From contig JAZNWA010000027.1 in NCBI GenBank assembly GCA_045593085.1, forward strand, positions 273-64,272: a stretch of 64,000 nt of DNA, in the 5' to 3' direction. Below are positions 2,651 to 60,640 of this stretch, piece after piece. Under the pieces are notes generated by a model, which made no database searches, had not been told where the DNA came from, and saw nothing but the letters and a program-made list of their open reading frames with translations. Position numbers and translations under genes: made by a program. The stretch comes from Lachnospiraceae bacterium (GTDB lineage Bacteria; Bacillota; Clostridia; Lachnospirales; Lachnospiraceae). The first letter of the stretch is position 1. Each line of letters opens with the position of its first letter.

Positions 2651-3208
2651 ATGTTTAGTTTGAAGAAAAGACAGATGACAATTGAAGAATATAATACCGC
2701 AGGCACTCACACTATAATAATCAATAATGCTCGTTATCAAAAAGGTTTTCTAAAGGCTATTGAAAAGATTATTGAAGCTTTTTTGGCTGATAAGGAAGTA
2801 TTTTTTGGATTTTATAGAACGGATGGTTTGAATTTAACGCTAGAAGAACAAAAAACACTCGAAAATGAAATACCGGCTTTTTTTCAGAAAAATGGTGATA
2901 TGCAAAACATAAGCGAGTATTTGTCAGTAGCAAGAAGCAAGTTAAATTATGATTGTTATAACTATATACCATTTATTTTTGATTATTATCTTGAAACTAT
3001 AATGTTTCCCTCAAAAGTAGATTGGGAGATTTTTAAGCAACATCATTCGAATTACCAAGAACACAGGTTTGAAGAAATCATTACTAATCATTTTTCGGAA
3101 GTACTATTTTTTTATTTTGATAGTGGAGATTTTTTGATTTGCTTTAATCCTAAAATGTATAGTCCTAGAGAGGTTAGAAATATGATTGAACTGTTTTTTG
3201 TGGTATAA
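2651..3208 (+). CDS. Hypothetical protein, probable orphan immunity protein
   Basis: 185-aa aromatic-rich AT-rich ORF with AGAGGAG RBS, within the Rhs array. Confidence 0.6.
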   Translation: MFSLKKRQMTIEEYNTAGTHTIIINNARYQKGFLKAIEKIIEAFLADKEVFFGFYRTDGLNLTLEEQKTLENEIPAFFQKNGDMQNISEYLSVARSKLNYDCYNYIPFIFDYYLETIMFPSKVDWEIFKQHHSNYQEHRFEEIITNHFSEVLFFYFDSGDFLICFNPKMYSPREVRNMIELFFVV

Positions 3209-13364: not shown

Positions 13365-13448
13365 GTTGTGGACTGCGTACTTTATTTCCGTGGTTGTGGA
13401 CTGCATACTTTATTTCCGTGGTTGTGGATTGCATGCTTTATTTCGGCG
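13365..13448. repeat. Tandem repeat, 3 x 28 bp (GTTGTGGACTGCRTACTTTATTTCCGTG)
   Basis: Copies at 13365, 13393 and 13421; the third is diverged and overlaps the LysR stop codon. Confidence 0.9.
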
Positions 13449-19075: not shown

Positions 19076-19918
19076 GTGTTTAAATTCTATTTATCTAAGG
19101 TCATTCGACTAAATTTTCCATTTTTACGTTTATCAATTATTATAAGGGAGGGAAGAGTTACGAAAAAAGAGGAAATTATTGCGATTGAAAAACAACTTCA
19201 GGAAATTAATACAATGTTAGAAAATTTGCCTGTTGGTAAATTACTATGTGCAAAAAACGGCAAATACTTCAAATGGTTCGTCGTAAGTAACAAGAAGAAA
19301 GTTTATATACCCAAAGAGGAACGACAATTTGCAGAAGAGCTTGCGTATAGGAGATATTTAGAGGAATTGCAGCTGGATTTGAAAGACGATTTAAAGTTGA
19401 TGAAATTAACAGAGAAGAGTACGGAAAGAAAATATCGTCATATTAAATTATTGGAAAAGCCGGGATTCATGGATTTGCTGCAAGAAAAAATAGGACTTGA
19501 CAGTGAACTGAAACAATGGCAAGAAGCGGATTATAATAGTAATCCTTATTATAGTGAGGAATTGAAGATAAAAGTTCATGAAGGACTTTATGTGCGATCG
19601 AAATCCGAATCAATGATTGCAATGATGTTAATACGTTACCAAATTCCTTTTCGATATGAATGCGAACTAAGAATAGCGAATAAAGTCTTATACCCTGATT
19701 TTACAATTTTACATCCGAAAACAAAGAAAATCGTTTATTGGGAGCATCTAGGTATGACGGATAATTATAAATACTGTCGGGATAATTATGGTAAACTGTT
19801 GGATTATTTTGCGGAAGATATTTGGTTTGGAGATAACCTCATTTTAACGAGTGAAACGCGGAGGAATCCGTTAGATTACGAAACAATTGAGCATCGTATT
19901 AAGGAATTTTTTCTATGA
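19076..19918 (+). CDS. Uncharacterised coiled-coil + PD-(D/E)XK/Vsr(DUF559)-like nuclease, paralog 1
   Basis: C-terminal VRSKSE...IPFRYE...YPDFTILHP...YWEHLGM; clear paralog of 26393..27157. The true start is uncertain (RBS GGGAGG precedes an in-frame ACG at 19160). Confidence 0.75.
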   Translation: MFKFYLSKVIRLNFPFLRLSIIIREGRVTKKEEIIAIEKQLQEINTMLENLPVGKLLCAKNGKYFKWFVVSNKKKVYIPKEERQFAEELAYRRYLEELQLDLKDDLKLMKLTEKSTERKYRHIKLLEKPGFMDLLQEKIGLDSELKQWQEADYNSNPYYSEELKIKVHEGLYVRSKSESMIAMMLIRYQIPFRYECELRIANKVLYPDFTILHPKTKKIVYWEHLGMTDNYKYCRDNYGKLLDYFAEDIWFGDNLILTSETRRNPLDYETIEHRIKEFFL

Positions 19919-19960: not shown

Positions 19961-20254
19961 TGGGCATATAGAAGTGAAAAAAATCGGTTGGCTGGGCATA
20001 TAGAAGTGAAAAGGATTTCGGGTGGCTGGGCATATAGAAGTGAAAAAAATTATATGCCCAATTTATGCTCGAAAATAAGCAAAAATATTGTGAAATTGGG
20101 CCTATAGAGAAGGCATTTTACATATGCCCGGGTTTTCAGGTGAAAGTGAGGGCATATACAAAATTCAAAGTGTATGTGCCCAAATTCACAGGAAATAGGA
20201 CTGAAATTCTCGTGAATTCGGGCTTTTTCCAAGCCATGCGTTCTATGTGCCCAA
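19961..20254. repeat. Palindromic-end unit array A (GGGCATAT / ATRTGCCC)
   Basis: TGGGCATATAGAAGTGAAAA x3 (GGG at 19962, 19994, 20028); units GGG..CCC at 20028-59, 20098-129, 20150-81 and 20220-52. Confidence 0.88.
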
Positions 20255-24512: not shown

Positions 24513-25703
24513 ATGCAGATTTTAGTAATCAACTGTGGTAGCTCTTCATTAAAATTCCAGTTAATTAATGCAGAGACAGAAAACGTAAAAGCATCCGGTT
24601 TATGCGAAAGAATCGGCATTGACGGAAGATTGGTATATCAGCCGGCAGGATGCGACAAGATTAGCACAGATGTTGCTATGCCTGACCACAAGGCAGCAAT
24701 CAAATTAGTTATCGATGCTTTGACAAATCCGGAAAACGGAGTTGTGAAGTCTTTATCCGAAATTGATGCAGTAGGCCATCGTGTGGTTCACGGCGGAGAA
24801 AAGTTCGCAGGTTCTGTTGTAATCACAGACGAAGTAATCAAAGTATTAGAAGAGTGTACAGATTTGGCACCACTTCACAATCCTGCAAACATTACAGGTA
24901 TTTTAGCAGCTCAGGAATTAATGCCGGGCGTACCAATGGTTGGTGTATTTGATACCGCTTTCCATCAGACCATGCCTGCAAAAGCTTTCACATACGGTGT
25001 TCCTCATGAGTACTATGACAAATATGCAGTAAGAAGATACGGTTTCCACGGAACTTCTCACGCATATGTTTCAGCAAGAGCAGCAGAATTGGCAGGTAAG
25101 CCATATGATCAGTGTAAGACAATCGTTTGCCACTTAGGTAACGGAAGCTCTATCTGTGCAGTTGAAAACGGAAAATCTGTTGATACATCCATGGGACTTA
25201 CTCCATTGGAAGGTTTATTAATGGGAACACGTTCCGGTGATATCGATGCAGGTGCTTTAGAGTACATCATGAAAAAAGAAGGCATCGAATTCAAAGAAAT
25301 GATGAACATCTTAAACAAGAAATCCGGTTTACTTGGTGTATCCGGCGTTTCTTCTGACTCCAGAGACGTTATGGCAGCAGCGGCTGAAGGAAACAAAAAT
25401 GCAGCATTAGCAATTGAAAACTTCAACTACCGCGTTGCTAAATATGTTGGTGCTTACGCAGCAGCTATGAATGGTGTTGATGTTATTGCATTTACCGCAG
25501 GTATCGGCGAAAACGCTATCGACACAAGAGTAGACATCTGCAAATACTTTGAATACCTTGGAATTAAGATTGACTTAGAAAAGAATAACGTTCGTGGTAA
25601 AGAAGTAGAAATCTCTACTCCGGATTCCAAAGTTAAAGTATTTATCATTCCAACAAACGAAGAATTAAAGATTGCAAGAGAAACTGTTGCTTTAGTTAAA
25701 TAA
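24513..25703 (+). CDS. ackA: Acetate kinase
   Basis: INCGSSSLK, GHRVVHGG, APLHN, FDTAFH, YGFHGTSH, PTNEE. Confidence 0.97.
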   Translation: MQILVINCGSSSLKFQLINAETENVKASGLCERIGIDGRLVYQPAGCDKISTDVAMPDHKAAIKLVIDALTNPENGVVKSLSEIDAVGHRVVHGGEKFAGSVVITDEVIKVLEECTDLAPLHNPANITGILAAQELMPGVPMVGVFDTAFHQTMPAKAFTYGVPHEYYDKYAVRRYGFHGTSHAYVSARAAELAGKPYDQCKTIVCHLGNGSSICAVENGKSVDTSMGLTPLEGLLMGTRSGDIDAGALEYIMKKEGIEFKEMMNILNKKSGLLGVSGVSSDSRDVMAAAAEGNKNAALAIENFNYRVAKYVGAYAAAMNGVDVIAFTAGIGENAIDTRVDICKYFEYLGIKIDLEKNNVRGKEVEISTPDSKVKVFIIPTNEELKIARETVALVK

Positions 25704-25720
25704 TTTATCAGATGAAATCG

Positions 25721-25751
25721 GGGCATGCATTTGTGCATGCCCTGTTTTTTT
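25721..25751 (+). terminator. Terminator after ackA
   Basis: GGGCATGCA-TTTG-TGCATGCCC plus T-tract. Confidence 0.85.
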
Positions 25752-25787
25752 ATGCCCTGCCATCGTTTAATATGTCCGGCCCATGGG

Positions 25788-26089
25788 TTGGGTCAAGGCT
25801 AATGCGTTGTGTGTTACAGACCCAATCGGCGAGCATATGTTAAGATGCAGGTGGTGTGGTTGGGGCATAGTAAAAAAGGCTTCTGCCGAGACCCGAAAAA
25901 AACTCTTTTTAGTATGGAATTTGTGGAGATTGGGTCTTGGCAGAAGAGAGTTATAGTGCAGACCCGGAGTTTCGACGGATTGGTGGGTCTTGGGCGATTT
26001 TCGAGACGCATAGACCCGAAGTGACGAAAAAAGACGGAAGAATGCTTGTTTTTTGGGTCTGCGATGAGACAAGTTGGCTATAGACCCAA
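25788..26089. repeat. Palindromic-end unit array B (TTGGGTCT / AGACCCRA), 5 units
   Basis: GGG at 25790, 25862, 25932, 25985, 26055; paired CCC ends at 25823, 25894, 25965, 26017, 26087; cores all different. Confidence 0.85.
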
Positions 26090-26392
26090 CCACGGAAATT
26101 AATAAAGCCTGAAGGATAAAGAGACTAGGAAAATCAACAAAAACGCGGATGTTAAAGGAATCACGGAAACCAATAGAAGCTTGGAAATTAGAATAACAGC
26201 CGCTGCTGAAGATGTCTACCAAGGAAACATTCGCATTATATGGTCACACGAGTGAAGCAAAAAGAGAGAAAATCTTAAAAGTTTATAAAGTGCTGATGAT
26301 GACTTTACTTAAAAAGAAAATTATGATTCAATTAATATATCATTCAAATGGGATATCCAAAATGGATTCAAATTTAATAGGGGGAGAGTTAT

Positions 26393-27157
26393 ATGTATGA
26401 AAAAATGGTGCAAGAAAGACAACGAATCGCACGGAAAATTGAAGAGTTGCAGCGTAAAATTCGTTCATACCCGGAAGGCAAATTGATTTGTGCCGGAAAT
26501 GGCAAGTATGTAAAATGGTATATTAGCTACGGAAACAATCGCACATACATCAAGAAAAAGGACCGAACCCTGGCAGAGAAAATGGCTGCTAAAAAATATT
26601 TAACAGCAGTGTTGATAGAATTAGATGCAGAAAAAAAGGCGATTGAGAGTTATCTTAAACATCACAGGACGGAAACAAGTCATTTGTTGGAGACGCCGGG
26701 ATACCAGGAATTGCTTGTACCATTTTTTAAAAGCTTTGAGCAAAGCGCATGGGAGTGGATGAATGAACCGTATGAGAAAAATGAAGCTTTTCCGACAGCA
26801 CTTATTCACCAGACAGTTGTTGGAATTAAAGTAAGATCCAAGTCAGAGTCGATGATTGTTAAAGTGTTGGCTGAACATGGAATAGCATTTCGCTATGAAT
26901 GGCGATTGGATTTTGGCGAAGGATTGGCCTATCCTGATTTTACGATTATGCATCCGGTAACAGGGAAGCTTTATTATTGGGAACATTTTGGGATGATGAA
27001 CAAACGTGAATATAGGAATCGGGCAGTAAATAAGATTCAAAATTATTCTTACAACGGAATTATTCCCGGCATACAGCTCATCATGACTTTTGAAACGGAG
27101 GATGACCCTTTGACATATGAAAAGATTGAATGGATTATAAAAATGTATTTTGAGTAA
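26393..27157 (+). CDS. Uncharacterised coiled-coil + PD-(D/E)XK/Vsr(DUF559)-like nuclease, paralog 2
   Basis: PEGKLICAGNGKY.KW, VRSKSE, AFRYE, YPDFTIMHP, YWEHFGM; GGGGGAG RBS. Confidence 0.8.
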   Translation: MYEKMVQERQRIARKIEELQRKIRSYPEGKLICAGNGKYVKWYISYGNNRTYIKKKDRTLAEKMAAKKYLTAVLIELDAEKKAIESYLKHHRTETSHLLETPGYQELLVPFFKSFEQSAWEWMNEPYEKNEAFPTALIHQTVVGIKVRSKSESMIVKVLAEHGIAFRYEWRLDFGEGLAYPDFTIMHPVTGKLYYWEHFGMMNKREYRNRAVNKIQNYSYNGIIPGIQLIMTFETEDDPLTYEKIEWIIKMYFE

Positions 27158-27198
27158 GCATTGAAAAAAGCGTTAGAAATCTTATGAAAGGAAATCTT

Positions 27199-28776
27199 AT
27201 GAAAAAGATACTTATTACTGTGGCATTATTAATGCTCGCATCAACATTATTTGGGTGTAAAAAAGATAAAAACTATGAATTAAATGTAGAGTACACAAAA
27301 GGGCCGGTTTCCTTTAAAGAAGTTTATGGAATCGGCAGATACAACAACTCCAAAGATTTGGGGACGATTGCTAATGCAGAGCATATTACATACTATTTTG
27401 CATCTGAATTGACCGATGCACAGATAGAAGAATACGTAAAAGAGACGAATCAGCTAATCCATCAGATGGAAGAGGAATTGGAAATAAAGGGGAAGAAATA
27501 CGACATTTATGTATGTAATGTTGACTACGTAACAACAGTAGATGAAAAAACGCTATATACAACATATTCCGACTTTGGAACCGTAGAACATGTTCGAGGA
27601 ATCGCACAATTACTTTGCGGAAACGAAGTGAATTATGGTTTGCTGTATGGGTATGCAGCCTCTTTTGCAAAAGAATATGATTTTAATATAAAAACAGACG
27701 GGTTGGCGGAGGCACTTAAACTTCGCGAAACCAATCCTGAGTACCTGGATATGAATTATGCCTGCTTTAATGAGCACTATGCGGAGCCGGAAAATATTGA
27801 AAAATTACAGGTCATCGCCGCAAATTATTATGCATATTTACAGGCGAATAAGAAGACAGAAATTGTAAAAGACTTTTCGGATGAGAAGCATAGGGAATAC
27901 TTCAATCAGTTCCTGGCAGCCAATGGCAAGGAGGCATATGACAACTCCGATATGGAGGGAATCGCCATCTACGCCGGAGGAAACGGTGCGGAACTTATTT
28001 GGAAAGACAATGTGGGCTTGTATTATTTAGAAGAGGGATTTGAACCGAATTATTTACATGGTTATTTTGAAGAAGACCCGTTTAATAGTGGGTATGAAAA
28101 TTTTCGTAAGTTAATACTGGATTATCAGGTGCAGCGACAATTTTTGAAGGACGAATTTGCAGAGTATAATGTTAATATTGAACCGGTAAAAATAATCTTC
28201 ACAAAGGGTGGTAATTATGCTATAGGGGGCTCCGGGAAGGCTGATACATATGATGATACCATTTTGGTGCATACGCCAATGAATGTTCAACAGCACTATG
28301 TCAATAAAATGCTTTTCCAAGAGGGAAAAAGTGCGGGTTGGGTATTGAGCGCGGTACGAACATATTATGTATACTATCCGGGGGCTGAGGATGCCAACTT
28401 TTTTGTGAAATGGTTTCAGGAGTCCGTACAAGAAGTGAGAGAAAATCCGGAAGTTGATATAGTAGAGTATGAATTGATAACACAAATAGAAGAACAGCTT
28501 GGACATCCGTTAGATCTTTCCGTGCGTAATGATTGTATTTATTACTATGGAGCCTTGGCGGTACAGGGAGGATTAGCATACATGCCAATTAACGGAGAAG
28601 CTTCTTTTGAACAGGTTTCTTTCGTGAGTTACCTGATGTTTCTTGTGGGAGAAGAAAATGCAATATCTGCAATCTTAAAAGACGATGCAGAAGATACCTT
28701 TGGAAAAAGTTGGGAAGAATTGCAAGATGATTGGCTGAATTATATCGAAACCACTTTTTCGTGGATGATAGAATAA
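27199..28776 (+). CDS. Hypothetical lipoprotein
   Basis: MKKILITVALLMLASTLFGC lipobox; acidic 525-aa body; no family recognised. Confidence 0.75.
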   Translation: MKKILITVALLMLASTLFGCKKDKNYELNVEYTKGPVSFKEVYGIGRYNNSKDLGTIANAEHITYYFASELTDAQIEEYVKETNQLIHQMEEELEIKGKKYDIYVCNVDYVTTVDEKTLYTTYSDFGTVEHVRGIAQLLCGNEVNYGLLYGYAASFAKEYDFNIKTDGLAEALKLRETNPEYLDMNYACFNEHYAEPENIEKLQVIAANYYAYLQANKKTEIVKDFSDEKHREYFNQFLAANGKEAYDNSDMEGIAIYAGGNGAELIWKDNVGLYYLEEGFEPNYLHGYFEEDPFNSGYENFRKLILDYQVQRQFLKDEFAEYNVNIEPVKIIFTKGGNYAIGGSGKADTYDDTILVHTPMNVQQHYVNKMLFQEGKSAGWVLSAVRTYYVYYPGAEDANFFVKWFQESVQEVRENPEVDIVEYELITQIEEQLGHPLDLSVRNDCIYYYGALAVQGGLAYMPINGEASFEQVSFVSYLMFLVGEENAISAILKDDAEDTFGKSWEELQDDWLNYIETTFSWMIE

Positions 28777-28812
28777 GAGCAGAATAAGAACGAAATAAAA
28801 AGAAAAAGCAAA

Positions 28813-28859
28813 AACTGCCTTTCGTTTGGACTTGATGAAAGTTAAAACGTCAGGCAGTT
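28813..28859. terminator. Hairpin / bidirectional terminator between convergent genes
   Basis: AACTGCCT...AGGCAGTT outer stem with inner CGTTT/AAACG and ACTT/AAGT pairs. Confidence 0.55.
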
Positions 28860-28913
28860 ATTTGTTTTGTGAAAAATAAGCAAATAAATCATAACCATAA
28901 TTAAGAAACGATA

Positions 28914-30017
28914 TTACTTGGCAGGGACAGATTCCGCATCCGCCAGGGTTTTTCGCAACTGTCTTCGAACGCGATTAATATGTCGTTCAAAATCACCGTT
29001 ATTGATGAGCTCTGCCAGTACGTATTGCATAAAAGTCGGAACGGTACAGGAGTAAAAGCCCAGTTTATCTTCAAAAAATCCGATGAGAGATTTTGGAAGA
29101 ACCATGTATGCGATTCGTAAGGAAGGCGAAATGGTTTGGGAAAATGAGTTCAAATAAATAACATTTTCCGGAGAGAGTGAAAAAAGTGTTTCCGCAGGTT
29201 TGGTGGAAACGGAAAACTCGGACTCAAAATCATCTTCGATGATATAGCGGTTATTTTGAGAGGCCCAACGGATATACTCGTGGCGCTTGGAAGCGGATGC
29301 GGTAACGCCGCTGGGATAACTGCGGAAAGGCGTTGTATGCAAAATATCGGCTTTTGTTTTTTCTAAAGCGTTGCTGTCTATGCCGGTGTTAACTAAAGGA
29401 AGTGATTCAAAAGTAACATCCGCTGACTCGTACACTTGTTGGATTTTTTTGTACGAAGGCGATTCGATGGCATAAATATGTTGTCTTCCGAACAATTCTA
29501 CAATTAAAGTATATAGGTATTCTGAACCGGAGCCGATAACAATCTGGTTGCTGTCCACCTGAATGCCGCGGTTTCTTGCAAGATACTGACGTATGGCCAA
29601 TATCAGATGCTGACATCCCGAATTTGGTGAGCGCTCAAAAAGAGAGTCGCCATTTTCTGCCAGGACCTTGCGCATCGTTCTGCTAAGTACCGAAAGAGGA
29701 AAGTCAAGATGGTTATGTGTAGAGGAACTCAAAGGTAAAGCGTGGGCAATAGGAGTAGCCACGGAGGCAAACCCATCACTGTTTTGAAAAACAACAATGT
29801 AGCCAACGCGCTCTTTGGATTCGACGTATCCCTCGTCACAAAGGAGAGCATAAGCGTGCTCAATGGTAATGACACTAACGCCTGTTTCTTCTGCAAGATG
29901 ACGCTTGGAAGGGAGTTTTGCGCCAAAAGGATAATTCCCGGCAACGATATCATCCCTGATTTGTGTGTAAATTTGTAGGTAAACGGGTCTTTGTTCCGGA
30001 TTGATTACATACTTCAT
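28914..30017 (-). CDS. MocR/PdxR-type GntR regulator with PLP-aminotransferase domain (short form)
   Basis: N-terminal GntR HTH (KLPSKRHLA, VSVITIEHAY..L.DEGY); IIEDDFESEF and SFSQTISPSLRIAYM motifs. Confidence 0.88.
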   Translation of the reverse strand: MKYVINPEQRPVYLQIYTQIRDDIVAGNYPFGAKLPSKRHLAEETGVSVITIEHAYALLCDEGYVESKERVGYIVVFQNSDGFASVATPIAHALPLSSSTHNHLDFPLSVLSRTMRKVLAENGDSLFERSPNSGCQHLILAIRQYLARNRGIQVDSNQIVIGSGSEYLYTLIVELFGRQHIYAIESPSYKKIQQVYESADVTFESLPLVNTGIDSNALEKTKADILHTTPFRSYPSGVTASASKRHEYIRWASQNNRYIIEDDFESEFSVSTKPAETLFSLSPENVIYLNSFSQTISPSLRIAYMVLPKSLIGFFEDKLGFYSCTVPTFMQYVLAELINNGDFERHINRVRRQLRKTLADAESVPAK

Positions 30018-31866: not shown

Positions 31867-31929
31867 AAAAGTGCTTGCATTTTTTTTCTGAATCAGTTAT
31901 ACTTTTCAAGTACGCTAGTTGTACGAAAT

Positions 31930-32012
31930 GCCGGCGTGTCGGAATGGCAGACGAGGCAGACTCAAAATCTGTTGTTGGCAACAACGTGCGGGTTCAAGTC
32001 CCGCTGCCGGCA
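31930..32012 (+). tRNA. tRNA-Leu(CAA)
   Basis: GCCGGCG/TGCCGGC acceptor; GCAGA-CTCAAAA-TCTGT anticodon arm; long variable arm; GGTTCAAGTCC. Confidence 0.95.
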
Positions 32013-32014
32013 GT

Positions 32015-32045
32015 AACTCCCTTGAGAAATCAAGGGAGTTTTTTT
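32015..32045 (+). terminator. Terminator after tRNA-Leu
   Basis: AACTCCCTTGA-GAAA-TCAAGGGAGTT plus T-tract. Confidence 0.85.
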
Positions 32046-32102
32046 GTTGCGCGGTTACACAAAAAGAATGCGATAAGGGTTTTAAGAAAACCTCTATCGC
32101 AT

Positions 32103-32327
32103 TTATTTTTTTGGATATTCATTTTTTATATCACTTGCTCCAGTTATATAGTCCATAGATACATCATAGAATTTGGCAAGTTTCATAATATTATCTATTG
32201 GAATACGCGTTTTTCCACTTTCATAATCGGCATAGGTACGTTGTCCTATATTCAGTAAGTCAGCAATTTTTTGCTGCGTCAATTGACTATCTTCTCTTAT
32301 TTCTCGTATACGTTCATTGTAAATCAT
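32103..32327 (-). CDS. XRE-family HTH regulator
   Basis: RIREIRE..QLTQQKIADLLNIGQRTYADYESGKTRIP. Confidence 0.9.
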   Translation of the reverse strand: MIYNERIREIREDSQLTQQKIADLLNIGQRTYADYESGKTRIPIDNIMKLAKFYDVSMDYITGASDIKNEYPKK

Positions 32328-33530: not shown

Positions 33531-33672
33531 AATGAGCAAAGGCTCATTAAGTGCTTCACTACTTTGGAAGTGAACCTTAATTCAGACATTGCTTTGTACG
33601 AACAATGTTAATATTTGGGCTGACCGAAAGGTCCTGGTCCACCGTCGGGCGGGGATTTACCCCGCCATTTTT
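33531..33672 (+). ncRNA. Candidate structured RNA (DUF3800-associated RNA motif-like)
   Basis: Five consecutive hairpins: 33531-48, 33555-74, 33586-608, GACC-GAAA-GGTC 33622-33, and GGCGGGG/CCCCGCC 33648-66 followed by T-tract. Confidence 0.55.
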
Positions 33673-33694
33673 ATACAAAAGTATAGGGAGAGTT

Positions 33695-34372
33695 ATGAAA
33701 GAAAAAATATTGAGTATATTTGTGGATGAGTCCGGTGATTTTGGACAATATCATCCATTCTCGCCAAATTATTATGTGGTAATGGTTTTGCATAGACAGG
33801 CAGTTAATATATCAAAGAATATAAATGCTTTAGAAACACAAGTTGCTAATTGGGGATATCCGAAGCATGCCATACACACAGGACCTTTAATAAGACGTGA
33901 AGGTATATATAAAAATGATTTGCGAAAGAATCGAAAAGCGCTTTTTAATGCATTGTATCATTTTGTTCGATTGCTTGATATACATTATATTTGTCCGATG
34001 ATTAATCAAGGTGATTGCGAAGAGAAAACGAAACTTGCATACACAGACAAGCTTACGAAGGAGATTGCCAATCAGTTACAAGATAATTATGAATATTTCC
34101 ACGGATTTGATAAGATTATTGTGTATTACGATTATGGCCAGATAGAACTTGCAAAGATATTGATTTCTGTATTTAACACAAGATTTTCGAATGTGGAATT
34201 TAGGAAGATTGAAACTAATCAGTATAAATTATCTCAGGCGGCAGATTTGATTTGCACAGTTGAAGCAATTGCACATAAAACTGTTTTATCTAAATCAGAA
34301 ACGGAGTTTTTTCATTCCAAGAATGCTTTTGAAAAGAATATTTATAAGAATATTGGTAAGAAGAAATTTTAG
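33695..34372 (+). CDS. DUF3800 family protein
   Basis: N-terminal SIFVDESGDFG and C-terminal SQAADLI motifs; start at ATG 33695 after GGGAG. Confidence 0.8.
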   Translation: MKEKILSIFVDESGDFGQYHPFSPNYYVVMVLHRQAVNISKNINALETQVANWGYPKHAIHTGPLIRREGIYKNDLRKNRKALFNALYHFVRLLDIHYICPMINQGDCEEKTKLAYTDKLTKEIANQLQDNYEYFHGFDKIIVYYDYGQIELAKILISVFNTRFSNVEFRKIETNQYKLSQAADLICTVEAIAHKTVLSKSETEFFHSKNAFEKNIYKNIGKKKF

Positions 34373-60380: not shown

Positions 60381-60640
60381 TTGGGCTAGAAATCGGCCTT
60401 GGTGTAAAAAAATCCAATTTTTCAAGTGACGTGGGCTGAGGTGGCATGTGATTTCTCTTCAGTCCAAAAAACAGGGGCTTTTTGGACTGAAGCGTATTAC
60501 AGGGGTACCAGAGCCCAATTTTTGTGAAAAAATGCGAAAAACGGTTATTTTTTTGGGCTTTTTGTTTTTTTTAGATGGGCATCAGCCCAACGAGAAAGGA
60601 ATTGTGGGCTACGCTTCGATTTATAGCCATCATGGCCCAA
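60381..60640. repeat. Palindromic-end unit array C (TTGGGCT / AGYCCAA), 5 units
   Basis: GG(G/A) at 60383, 60433, 60484, 60555, 60606; partner (T/C)CC ending 60415, 60465, 60516, 60588, 60638. Confidence 0.75.

What the first reader, a model, noticed from the sequence alone, without database searches (positions are those of the whole stretch)
25788..26108. Array B: five units with conserved TTGGGTCT/AGACCC ends and unique ~22-nt cores upstream of nuclease paralog 2
The units are TTGGGTC..GACCCAA, TTGGGGC..GACCCGA, TTGGGTCT..AGACCCGG, GTGGGTCT..AGACCCGA and TTGGGTCT..AGACCCAA, all with different cores, giving a repeat-spacer-like layout. Pairing also works across units: TTCTGCCGAGACCCGA (25881-96) is the near-perfect inverse of TTGGGTCTTGGCAGAA (25930-45), so core sequence was copied in inverted orientation between neighbours. 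The array ends in CCCAACCACGGAAAT, and CAACCACGGAAAT matches the reverse complement of the 28-bp tandem repeat at 13365.
Basis: seen in the sequence. Interest (0 to 1): 0.7.

Follow-up and report, generated by a model that had tools for sequence, protein, structure and literature searches.

The report
Palindrome array paired with nuclease gene
Array B is real, but it is not a CRISPR-like guide array: it is one copy of an apparently undescribed family of evenly spaced palindromic DNA sites, scattered through gut and rumen Lachnospiraceae genomes, that travels with an uncharacterised nuclease-like gene much as REP elements travel with their RAYT transposase.

Summary
The five units exist as described, and both the end motif and the tail match are far beyond chance.

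Array B is one of about 30 intergenic arrays in this 2.1-Mb genome. They share one plan: (TT)GGG-N26-29-CCC(AA) units spaced about 52 and 71 bp apart. There are four arm types: GGGTCT, GGGCATAT, GGGCTN and TGGACAT. Each of the four full-length paralogs of the 254-aa nuclease-like protein is flanked by its own arm type.

In 80 loci from other Lachnospiraceae, such units are 8-18 times denser within 1.2 kb of the homologous gene than further away. The three same-genus genomes without the gene show no excess of units.

The nearest sister species has an empty site. There, ackA is followed directly by the GntR gene, so array B, the nuclease gene and a lipoprotein gene together form a 3.1-kb indel. 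Three orphan GGGTCT arrays are also missing at the sister's orthologous sites.

The cores have no matches in phages, plasmids, IMG/VR or the genome itself. In close relatives, related arrays align position by position. Arms are conserved, but changes within an arm family are almost never compensated. This favours protein-recognised double-stranded half-sites over RNA or ssDNA hairpins.

Best reading: these are docking or cleavage sites for the adjacent PD-(D/E)xK-like nuclease, a REP/RAYT-like pairing that I could not find described. Transcription could not be tested.

The parts
24513..25703 (+). ackA (acetate kinase), the conserved left neighbour
   Evidence: Pfam PF00871, E 5.5e-158
25719..25751 (+). 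ackA intrinsic terminator; homology to the sister species G002 ends about 20 nt after it, near 25771/25772
25772..28861 (.). 3.1-kb segment absent from sister species G002, where the ackA terminator is followed directly by the GntR gene. It holds array B, the nuclease gene and a lipoprotein gene.
25788..25825 (.). unit 1, TTGGGTC-N24-GACCCAA
25860..25896 (.). unit 2, TTGGGGC-N23-GACCCGA (degenerate left arm)
25930..25967 (.). unit 3, TTGGGTCT-N22-AGACCCGG. Its left arm extends to a 15-nt inverted match with the right arm of unit 2.
25983..26019 (.). unit 4, GTGGGTCT-N21-AGACCCGA
26053..26089 (.). unit 5, TTGGGTCT-N21-AGACCCAA
   Evidence: identical in the near-identical strain L108
26085..26099 (+). 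tail CCCAACCACGGAAAT. The same ACCCAACCACG end closes the GGGTCT arrays on contigs C8 and C11.
26159..26175 (+). decayed second copy of the tail (AATCACGGAAACCAATA), 71 nt after the first
   Evidence: D4
26299..26327 (+). promoter-like site ahead of the nuclease gene (consensus match only)
26393..27157 (+). nuclease-like paralog 2 (P0001, 254 aa): N-terminal coiled coil and small beta-sheet, C-terminal PD-(D/E)xK-like domain with VRSKSE..FRYE..YPDFTI.HP..YWEHFG
27184..28776 (+). 530-aa predicted lipoprotein (P0002) with no family match; part of the same indel
28914..30017 (-). GntR-family regulator, the conserved right neighbour
19076..19918 (+). nuclease-like paralog 1 (37% identical to paralog 2)
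19961..20254 (.). array A: same plan, arm type GGGCATAT/ATATGCCC, directly downstream of paralog 1
60381..60640 (.). array C: orphan array of arm type GGGCTN/NAGCCC, unit spacing 51/71/51
13365..13444 (-). 28-bp x 2.9 tandem repeat. Each copy carries a tail-like half-unit (GTCCACAACCACGGAAAT on the minus strand).

Best explanation
Array B is a module of five regularly spaced palindromic DNA sites. Each site has two inverted half-sites (TTGGGTCT / AGACCCAA) held 21-22 bp apart. These are most likely the cognate docking, and probably cleavage, sites of the PD-(D/E)xK-like protein encoded 285 bp downstream (paralog 2). I infer that this protein acts as a coiled-coil dimer that reads the two half-sites on double-stranded DNA and ignores the core. 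The gene and its array form one accessory cassette. Further arrays with the same arms lie gene-less in at least five other intergenic regions. The system therefore behaves like a REP/BIME-RAYT pair, either selfish or domesticated, but with a different enzyme class. Shown: the repeat family, its geometry, one private arm type per paralog, the association with the gene across genomes, conservation of arms over cores, presence/absence against the sister species, and the lack of guide-like features. Inferred: binding, dimerisation, cleavage, and how arrays spread.
For: 1. Family and geometry. TGGG-N27/28-CCCA occurs 70 times in the genome against 9 in the reversed control. About 30 arrays fall into four arm types, with a recurring unit spacing of about 71/52/70.
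2. Private arms. Each of the four full-length paralogs is flanked by its own arm type: GGGCATAT, GGGTCT, GGGCTN and TGGACAT.
3. Association. In 80 loci from other Lachnospiraceae, unit density is 1.25/kb downstream and 0.56/kb upstream of the gene, 0.07/kb further away and 0 inside it. 38 of 80 loci have at least 2 units, with at least 8 different palindromic arm types.
4. Presence/absence. The three same-genus genomes without the gene show no excess of units; most genomes with it do.
5. Sister species G002. It lacks paralog 2, has no GGGTCT unit, and has empty sites at ackA and at three orphan-array positions. It has its own CGGGTA-N23-TACCCG family beside its single nuclease gene.
6. Selection. 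In three close relatives, 2 of 45 arm columns vary against 44 of 214 others (p = 0.009).
7. Half-sites, not stems. Within arm families, 129 deviations are one-sided and unpaired, 37 are wobble and only 3 are compensated.
8. Protein. The AF2 model has pLDDT 87. The C-terminal domain matches the C-terminus of PADLOC PDC-S68 (E 6e-29), a PD-DEXK model (1.6e-3) and a PHROG endonuclease (7e-3). Foldseek gives weak hits to restriction-endonuclease-fold domains.
Against: The nuclease assignment rests on a motif, one strong domain match to an uncharacterised defence candidate, and weak structural hits (best Foldseek E 0.01). Arm type does not track the nuclease tree: 24 changes against 24.8 for shuffled labels. 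42 of 80 loci lack at least 2 GGG..CCC units; several of these visibly carry other arm types, but this was not quantified. Genome G011 has 6 gene copies and no TGGG..CCCA excess. Orphan arrays outnumber gene-linked ones, so a host factor could be the real reader. The polarity of the indel against G002 (gain or loss) cannot be set from two genomes. Arrays of one family share no core or linker similarity, so direct copying is not shown. This is compatible with old copies, since neutral DNA between G000 and G002 is already unalignable.
Confidence: 0.55

Rival explanations
1. The units act as hairpins in single-stranded DNA, on the lagging strand or during transcription or repair. They are cut and mobilised by the nuclease, which would be a mechanistic analogue of REP/REPIN-RAYT or IS200/IS605.
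For: Every arm family in every genome is an inverted repeat. Both strands of array B fold better than shuffles, with z = -5.4 and -3.8. Arrays are absent from the sister species at orthologous sites, which suggests mobility.
Against: Stems are only 5-8 bp with 21-24-nt loops. Within families, 129 one-sided disruptions stand against 3 compensated pairs. There is no strand bias between G-T and A-C mismatches. The good folding energy is a trivial result of repeated inverted arms. No HUH/Y1 enzyme is present.
Confidence: 0.2
2. The arrays are generic intergenic repeats read by a host factor (nucleoid protein, terminator or insulator, topoisomerase). The nuclease gene is only a frequent neighbour, for example because both prefer the same insertion-tolerant intergenic sites.
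For: About 24 of about 31 arrays in this genome have no nuclease gene beside them. Arm type does not follow the nuclease phylogeny.
Against: Units are enriched 8-18 fold next to the gene in 80 independent loci. There is one private arm type per paralog. Same-genus genomes without the gene show no excess. The sister species lacks both paralog 2 and all GGGTCT units.
Confidence: 0.1
3. Array B is transcribed into a multi-hairpin RNA that controls or neutralises the nuclease, like a type III toxin-antitoxin repeat RNA or a cis-regulatory leader.
For: Five repeated units lie upstream of, and on the same strand side as, a nuclease gene and begin just after a terminator.
Against: In other loci the arrays lie twice as often downstream of the gene. 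Most arrays are orphans. Units are not near-identical direct repeats. No terminator lies between the array and the gene. No Rfam family matches. There is no compensatory change. There is no ToxN-like domain.
Confidence: 0.07
4. This is a CRISPR-like adaptive array: the cores are acquired guides against mobile DNA.
For: The cores are unique and of nearly constant length between conserved ends, next to a nuclease gene.
Against: There are no core matches in phages, plasmids, IMG/VR or this genome. The conserved ends are inverted 6-10-mers, not direct repeats. No cas genes are nearby. A related array in close relatives aligns position by position, with point changes and whole-unit indels only.
Confidence: 0.02

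Closest known systems
REP/BIME elements and REPINs with their RAYT (REP-associated tyrosine transposase) in Proteobacteria
   Same: Both are short imperfect palindromes dispersed in intergenic DNA. Both form clusters of alternately oriented copies with a few fixed linker classes, as in BIMEs. In both, each repeat family flanks its own cognate gene, several divergent gene/repeat pairs occur per genome, and the distribution is patchy and lineage-specific.
   Different: The enzyme is a PD-(D/E)xK-like protein with a coiled-coil N-terminus, not an HUH/Y1 transposase. Only the 6-10-bp ends and the spacing are conserved, while cores are unrelated. There is no GTAG/CGTC tag and no sign of selection for hairpin pairing. 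The host is Lachnospiraceae (Bacillota).
CRISPR arrays
   Same: Constant and unique segments of fixed length alternate beside a nuclease gene.
   Different: The constant parts are inverted rather than direct. There are no cas genes, no protospacer matches and no core turnover in relatives.
Type III toxin-antitoxin loci (ToxIN, CptIN, TenpIN)
   Same: A short repeat array lies immediately upstream of a nuclease gene.
   Different: The repeats here are not near-identical direct repeats. There is no intervening terminator, the toxin fold differs, and most arrays are orphans or lie downstream of the gene.
Rpn/YhgA-like PD-(D/E)xK 'transposase_31' paralog families of enterobacteria (from my own knowledge)
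   Same: Several divergent PD-(D/E)xK paralogs per genome, thought to derive from mobile-element enzymes.
   Different: There is no detectable sequence relationship (no Pfam hit), and I know of no cognate repeat arrays for Rpn proteins.
PADLOC candidate defence protein PDC-S68 (about 1,200 aa)
   Same: Its C-terminal 125 residues are homologous to the nuclease domain here (E 6e-29).
   Different: Only that domain is shared. The protein here is 254 aa with its own N-terminal domain, and its full-length relatives were not found in viral contigs.

Membership tests
CRISPR array | Near-identical direct repeats of 23-55 bp | tested here: not met
   Only 6-10-nt arms recur, and they are inverted; no direct-repeat family spans the units
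CRISPR array | Spacers derived from mobile DNA | tested here: not met
   No significant hit in phages or plasmids; 0 exact hits for all five cores in IMG/VR
CRISPR array | Adjacent cas genes | tested here: not met
   The neighbours are SpoU methylase, a sigma factor, ackA, the nuclease-like gene, a lipoprotein and GntR. PADLOC gives no Cas hit for the nuclease or the lipoprotein
CRISPR array | Gain or replacement of spacers between close relatives | tested here: not met
   The arrays of L047, L063 and L070 align position by position; the only differences are point changes and one 81-nt unit indel. Unit 5 of array B is identical in strain L108
REP/BIME-RAYT system | Many short imperfect palindromes dispersed in intergenic regions | tested here: met
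   70 against 9 in the control; about 30 arrays, all intergenic
REP/BIME-RAYT system | Each repeat family flanks its own cognate gene | tested here: met
   Four paralogs with four arm types; enrichment next to the gene in 80 loci
REP/BIME-RAYT system | The cognate gene is an HUH/Y1 (IS200/IS605-type) transposase | tested here: not met
   No Pfam or NCBIfam hit at E up to 10; the domain is PD-(D/E)xK-like
REP/BIME-RAYT system | The whole repeat is conserved in sequence within a family, with a 5' tetranucleotide tag | tested here: not met
   Cores and linkers are unique; the ends read TTGG(G/A)
REP/BIME-RAYT system | Hairpin structure of the repeat in single-stranded DNA is the recognised form | tested here: inconclusive
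Type III toxin-antitoxin (ToxIN-like) | Near-identical tandem direct repeats, then a terminator, then a ToxN/AbiQ-type toxin | tested here: not met
   Tandem Repeats Finder reports nothing in 25788-26108; there is no terminator between the array and the gene; there is no ToxN domain
PD-(D/E)xK nuclease superfamily (the protein) | Restriction-endonuclease-like fold | tested here: inconclusive
   The AF2 model is confident (pLDDT 87). Foldseek hits to the R2 RLE domain, Can2/Card1/Cdn1, OkrAI, BamHI, Hjc and AF1548 are all weak (E 0.01-1)
PD-(D/E)xK nuclease superfamily (the protein) | Conserved acidic catalytic motif | tested here: inconclusive
   E152, D182 (PDF) and E197-H198 (WEH) are invariant in 14 sequences. 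The usual lysine is not obvious. I assigned these residues by eye
PD-(D/E)xK nuclease superfamily (the protein) | Profile match to a curated PD-(D/E)xK model | tested here: met
   PADLOC HEAT_CxxC_PD-DEXK E 1.6e-3; PDC-S68 C-terminus E 5.7e-29; PHROG endonuclease E 7e-3. There is no Pfam hit
Rpn/YhgA-like transposase_31 | Match to Pfam PF04754 / PF12784 | tested here: not met
   No Pfam family at E up to 10
Any Rfam RNA family | Covariance-model match | tested here: not met
   Nothing at gathering score on arrays A, B or C; only chance-level hits at E up to 10

The most novel reading that the evidence does not exclude
The 254-aa protein family (about 6,000 clusters at 50% identity, with no Pfam or NCBIfam model) defines a new class of bacterial genome-resident element. 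In this reading, a coiled-coil 'ruler' nuclease recognises two short inverted half-sites at a fixed distance. It actively seeds, maintains or homogenises phased arrays of such sites across the chromosome, and its specificity switches rapidly, giving one private arm type per paralog. Its mechanism would be unrelated to HUH transposition or CRISPR adaptation.
Probability: 0.2. Interest if true: 0.85.

Novelty: new variant of a known kind. Interest (0 to 1): 0.68.

Why it matters
If the pairing is functional, Lachnospiraceae, a dominant gut and rumen family, carry a widespread nuclease-plus-repeat system with no entry in Pfam, NCBIfam or Rfam, and I found no paper describing it. It was present in 21 of 61 sampled genera, with up to 13 copies per genome. 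It would be a second, independently evolved solution to the REP/RAYT problem of how a genome keeps a population of short palindromes with one dedicated enzyme. It would also supply a set of natural nucleases with short, rapidly changing, spacing-dependent specificities. In practice these arrays can be mistaken for CRISPR-like arrays or structured RNAs, and they mark sites of recent intergenic gain or loss between sister species.

Tried and rejected
- Rfam at gathering score and at E up to 10 gave nothing relevant.
- Pfam and NCBIfam on the nuclease and the lipoprotein gave no family. The PF20586 tag on a few homologues was not reproduced.
- Sequence search against the PDB found nothing.
- The spacer hypothesis found no support in phages, plasmids, IMG/VR or the genome itself.
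- The tail motif CC(C/T)AACCAC is not a family-wide feature. It is only 2.4 times enriched near the gene in 80 loci, and most of that comes from one locus. It seems specific to the GGGTCT family here and to a few other loci (L015, G002:C17).
- A tree test found no co-phylogeny of arm type and nuclease.
- An unfiltered pairing-frequency test near against far from the gene was too noisy to use, because of off-register G-runs. A generic hairpin census was swamped by A/T-rich hairpins.
- The one metagenome scan, using the ackA terminator, returned a single unrelated contig.
- One pattern search was mis-specified and found nothing; the corrected search is.
- The exact protein is not on record, and the 99% relative sits on a 1.8-kb contig that covers only unit 5.
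- I considered integron attC: the ends fit GTTRRRY/RYYYAAC in two units. I dropped it because there is no integrase, the order is wrong and the units are too short.

Full report
**1. The observation.**
The region between the ackA terminator (25719-25744 plus a T-run) and the next gene (26393) holds five units, as described. They lie at 25788-25825, 25860-25896, 25930-25967, 25983-26019 and 26053-26089. GGGTC-N15-35-GACCC occurs four times in the 64-kb window, all here, against 0.15 expected. Unit 2 has a degenerate left arm (GGGGC). The cores are 21-24 nt and unrelated to one another. The inverted match between the right arm of unit 2 and the left arm of unit 3 is real: 15 nt, 93%. CAACCACGGAAAT occurs three times in the window, once at the end of array B and twice on the minus strand of the 28-bp tandem repeat at 13365-13444, against 0.08 expected.

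**2. Array B is one member of a genome-wide family.**
The window is C27:273-64272 of a 2.1-Mb, 39% G+C assembly.
- Units of the same GGGTC..GACCC kind cluster in five further intergenic regions, on contigs C8, C11, C21, C24 and C27 near 119.5 kb.
- A looser pattern shows a general plan. TGGG-N27/28-CCCA occurs 70 times against 9 in the reversed-sequence control.
- The units fall into arm types GGGTCT/AGACCC, GGGCATAT/ATATGCCC and GGGCTN/NAGCCC, plus a fourth type, TGGACAT/ATGTCCA.
- About 30 arrays of 2-5 units result. Their start-to-start spacing recurs as roughly 71/52/70, with sums such as 122 where a decayed unit lies between.
- Arrays A (19961-20254) and C (60381-60640) of the first-stage notes are members.
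- Three GGGTCT arrays end in the same ACCCAACCACG tail, and some tails are tandemly repeated half-units.

**3. Link to the nuclease-like gene.**
P0001 (26393-27157, 254 aa) has four more relatives in the genome.
- Each of the four full-length paralogs is flanked by its own arm type:
  - paralog 1, GGGCATAT (array A);
  - paralog 2, GGGTCT (array B);
  - C22:141853-142620, GGGCTN on both sides;
  - C22:117361-118083, TGGACAT on both sides.
- In 80 loci from other Lachnospiraceae species that encode a homologue, GGG-N26-29-CCC units with at least 5 paired ends reach 1.25 per kb in the 1.2 kb downstream and 0.56 per kb upstream. Further away the density is 0.07 per kb, and inside the gene it is zero. 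38 of 80 loci have at least two units.
- Arms differ from locus to locus (GGGCAT, GGGTAT, GGGTCT, GGGTAC, GGGCAG, GGGCGT, GGGCAAAA, GGACAT and others) but are always inverted. Some loci without GGG..CCC units visibly carry arrays with other arms, such as TTGGACCT and TTGTTCGT.
- Among 12 other species of the genus, the gene is present in 0-13 copies. The three genomes without it show no excess of TGGG..CCCA units (6, 8 and 8 against 23, 17 and 6 in controls). Most genomes with it do show an excess. G011, with six copies and no excess, is an exception.
- In a sample of one genome per genus of the family, 21 of 61 carry the gene.
- The protein family is large. 6,016 clusters at 50% identity match at E up to 1e-3, and nearly all are about 255-260 aa. 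More than 2,000 close homologues exist, some named 'ATPase' by NCBI.
- In IMG/VR, only the C-terminal domain has relatives.

**4. The protein.**
There is no Pfam or NCBIfam family. Fourteen homologues share an invariant VRSKSE..FRYE..YPDFTI.HP..YWEHFG block. The AF2 model is confident (pLDDT 87). It shows two long N-terminal helices, a three-stranded sheet and a C-terminal alpha/beta domain. Foldseek returns only weak hits (E 0.01-1), but they are dominated by restriction-endonuclease-fold domains (R2 RLE, Can2/Card1/Cdn1, OkrAI, BamHI, MunI, Hjc, AF1548) and by prefoldin-like coiled coils. The C-terminal domain matches the C-terminus of the PADLOC candidate PDC-S68 at E 6e-29. It also matches a PD-DEXK model at 1.6e-3 and a PHROG endonuclease at 7e-3. 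I therefore call it PD-(D/E)xK-like, with moderate confidence.

**5. Evolutionary behaviour.**
The closest relative, G002, has ackA and GntR proteins 95% identical to those here.
- In G002 the ackA terminator is followed directly by the GntR gene. Homology to the window stops at about 25771 and resumes at about 28862. Array B, the nuclease gene and a 530-aa lipoprotein gene therefore form one 3.1-kb indel, with the array at its left edge.
- G002 has no GGGTCT unit at all.
- At the three orphan GGGTCT arrays whose flanks are syntenic, G002 has about 10, 218 and 81 nt where this genome has 459, 583 and 698 nt.
- G002 has its own CGGGTA-N23-TACCCG family: two units beside its single nuclease gene and two at an orphan site.
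- In another same-genus species, G012, a divergent homologue also sits just downstream of ackA, flanked on both sides by a roughly 400-bp array with yet other arms.
- In three closely related genomes (L047, L063, L070) the downstream arrays align position by position. Differences are point substitutions, one 81-nt unit-plus-linker indel and one 21-nt duplication. 2 of 45 arm columns vary against 44 of 214 core and linker columns (Fisher p = 0.009). The arm columns were defined by a pattern, so this test is slightly circular.
- A near-identical strain (L108) has the same unit 5 and one change in the tail.
- Arrays of one arm family share no core or linker similarity. This needs no special mechanism, because neutral DNA between this genome and G002 is already unalignable. 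Old copies would have lost all similarity except where selection acts.

**6. Hairpin or half-sites?**
Between families the two arms always change together. This could mean selection for pairing, or recognition of two identical half-sites by a symmetric protein. Within families the two readings predict different patterns. I took units lying in arrays of three families and counted the pairs that depart from the family consensus. 129 are one-sided and unpaired, 37 are G-T wobbles and 7 are changed on both sides but unpaired. Only 3 are compensated Watson-Crick pairs. The two transition classes, G-T and A-C on a given strand, are about equally common. Stems in array B are only 5-8 bp with 21-24-nt loops. 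Both strands fold better than shuffles (z = -5.4 and -3.8), but that follows trivially from repeated inverted arms. The evidence therefore favours independent half-sites at a fixed distance on duplex DNA. It does not exclude a single-stranded form.

**7. Guide or spacer reading.**
The five cores have no significant match in phage or plasmid collections (best E about 4). They have no exact match in IMG/VR and none elsewhere in the genome. There are no cas genes. The constant parts are inverted, not direct. Relatives show no core turnover. This reading is not supported.

**8. Mechanism proposed.**
Shown:
- a repeat family defined by short inverted ends and strict geometry;
- one arm type per paralog;
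- tight physical linkage with the gene across many genomes;
- conservation of arms over cores;
- lineage-specific presence.

Inferred: the protein dimerises through its long helices and reads two half-sites about three helical turns apart, which would explain the fixed gap and the free core. It then cuts at or near them. Array-plus-gene cassettes and gene-less arrays are gained and lost as units, through cleavage-stimulated recombination or tandem duplication. Whether the system is selfish, domesticated or defensive is open.

**9. Comparison with known systems.**
The logic is closest to REP/BIME-RAYT. The enzyme class, the repeat anatomy and the host differ, so it is not a member of that family. 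It fails the defining tests for CRISPR, type III toxin-antitoxin loci, Rfam families and Rpn/YhgA proteins. Literature searches for REP-like elements in Lachnospiraceae found nothing relevant. Earlier notes of this scan describe the same kind of array-nuclease pairing in other genomes. I treated them as leads. The association tests reported here were run independently.

**10. Limits.**
The single metagenome scan was uninformative. The polarity of the indels rests on one sister genome that is 63% complete.

Noticed in passing
L109 (G012:C18:21900-27000), about 1240-1720 and 2700-3150: In another species of the genus, a divergent homologue of the nuclease gene also sits immediately downstream of ackA, on the minus strand. 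It is flanked on both sides by near-identical arrays of about 400 bp with different arms. The ackA 3' flank therefore looks like a recurrent landing site.
   Followed up: partly
L021 785-1200 and 2076-2440; L038 2534-2800 and 3983-4250: The same multi-unit array, including its cores, is repeated in direct orientation on both sides of the nuclease gene. This suggests tandem duplication of an array-gene module, or a cassette bounded by direct repeats.
   Followed up: no
window 27184-28776: A 530-aa predicted lipoprotein (signal peptide plus Cys) has no Pfam, NCBIfam, PHROG or PADLOC family. It belongs to the same 3.1-kb indel as array B and the nuclease gene, and it also follows the gene in strain L108.
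   Followed up: partly
genome C27:119763-119880 (outside the window), C11:58246-58330, C24:20960-21010: Some arrays end in tandem repeats of a half-unit, with one arm plus 10-20 nt repeated 3-6 times (for example GGGAAACCCAACGGGAGA x6). Array A likewise begins with three left-arm-only copies (19961-20050). No explanation was tested.
   Followed up: no
window 33616-33663: An Rfam DUF3800-XI RNA match (59.8 bits, gathering score 37.8) overlaps the start of the ORF 33605-34372.
   Followed up: no
window 31930-32012: A tRNA match lies inside the mechanical ORF 31875-32258, so that ORF is probably spurious.
   Followed up: no
genome C1:101532-101768 and C1:100298-100510: A fragment of a fifth nuclease paralog (C-terminal 80 residues only) lies about 1 kb from a GGGCTN-type array near a contig end. 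It may be a decayed gene-array pair.
   Followed up: no
window 25767-26222 (-): A 151-aa mechanical ORF spans array B. Because the same array plan recurs at about 30 sites with unrelated cores, I treated it as non-coding, but I ran no homology search on it.
   Followed up: no
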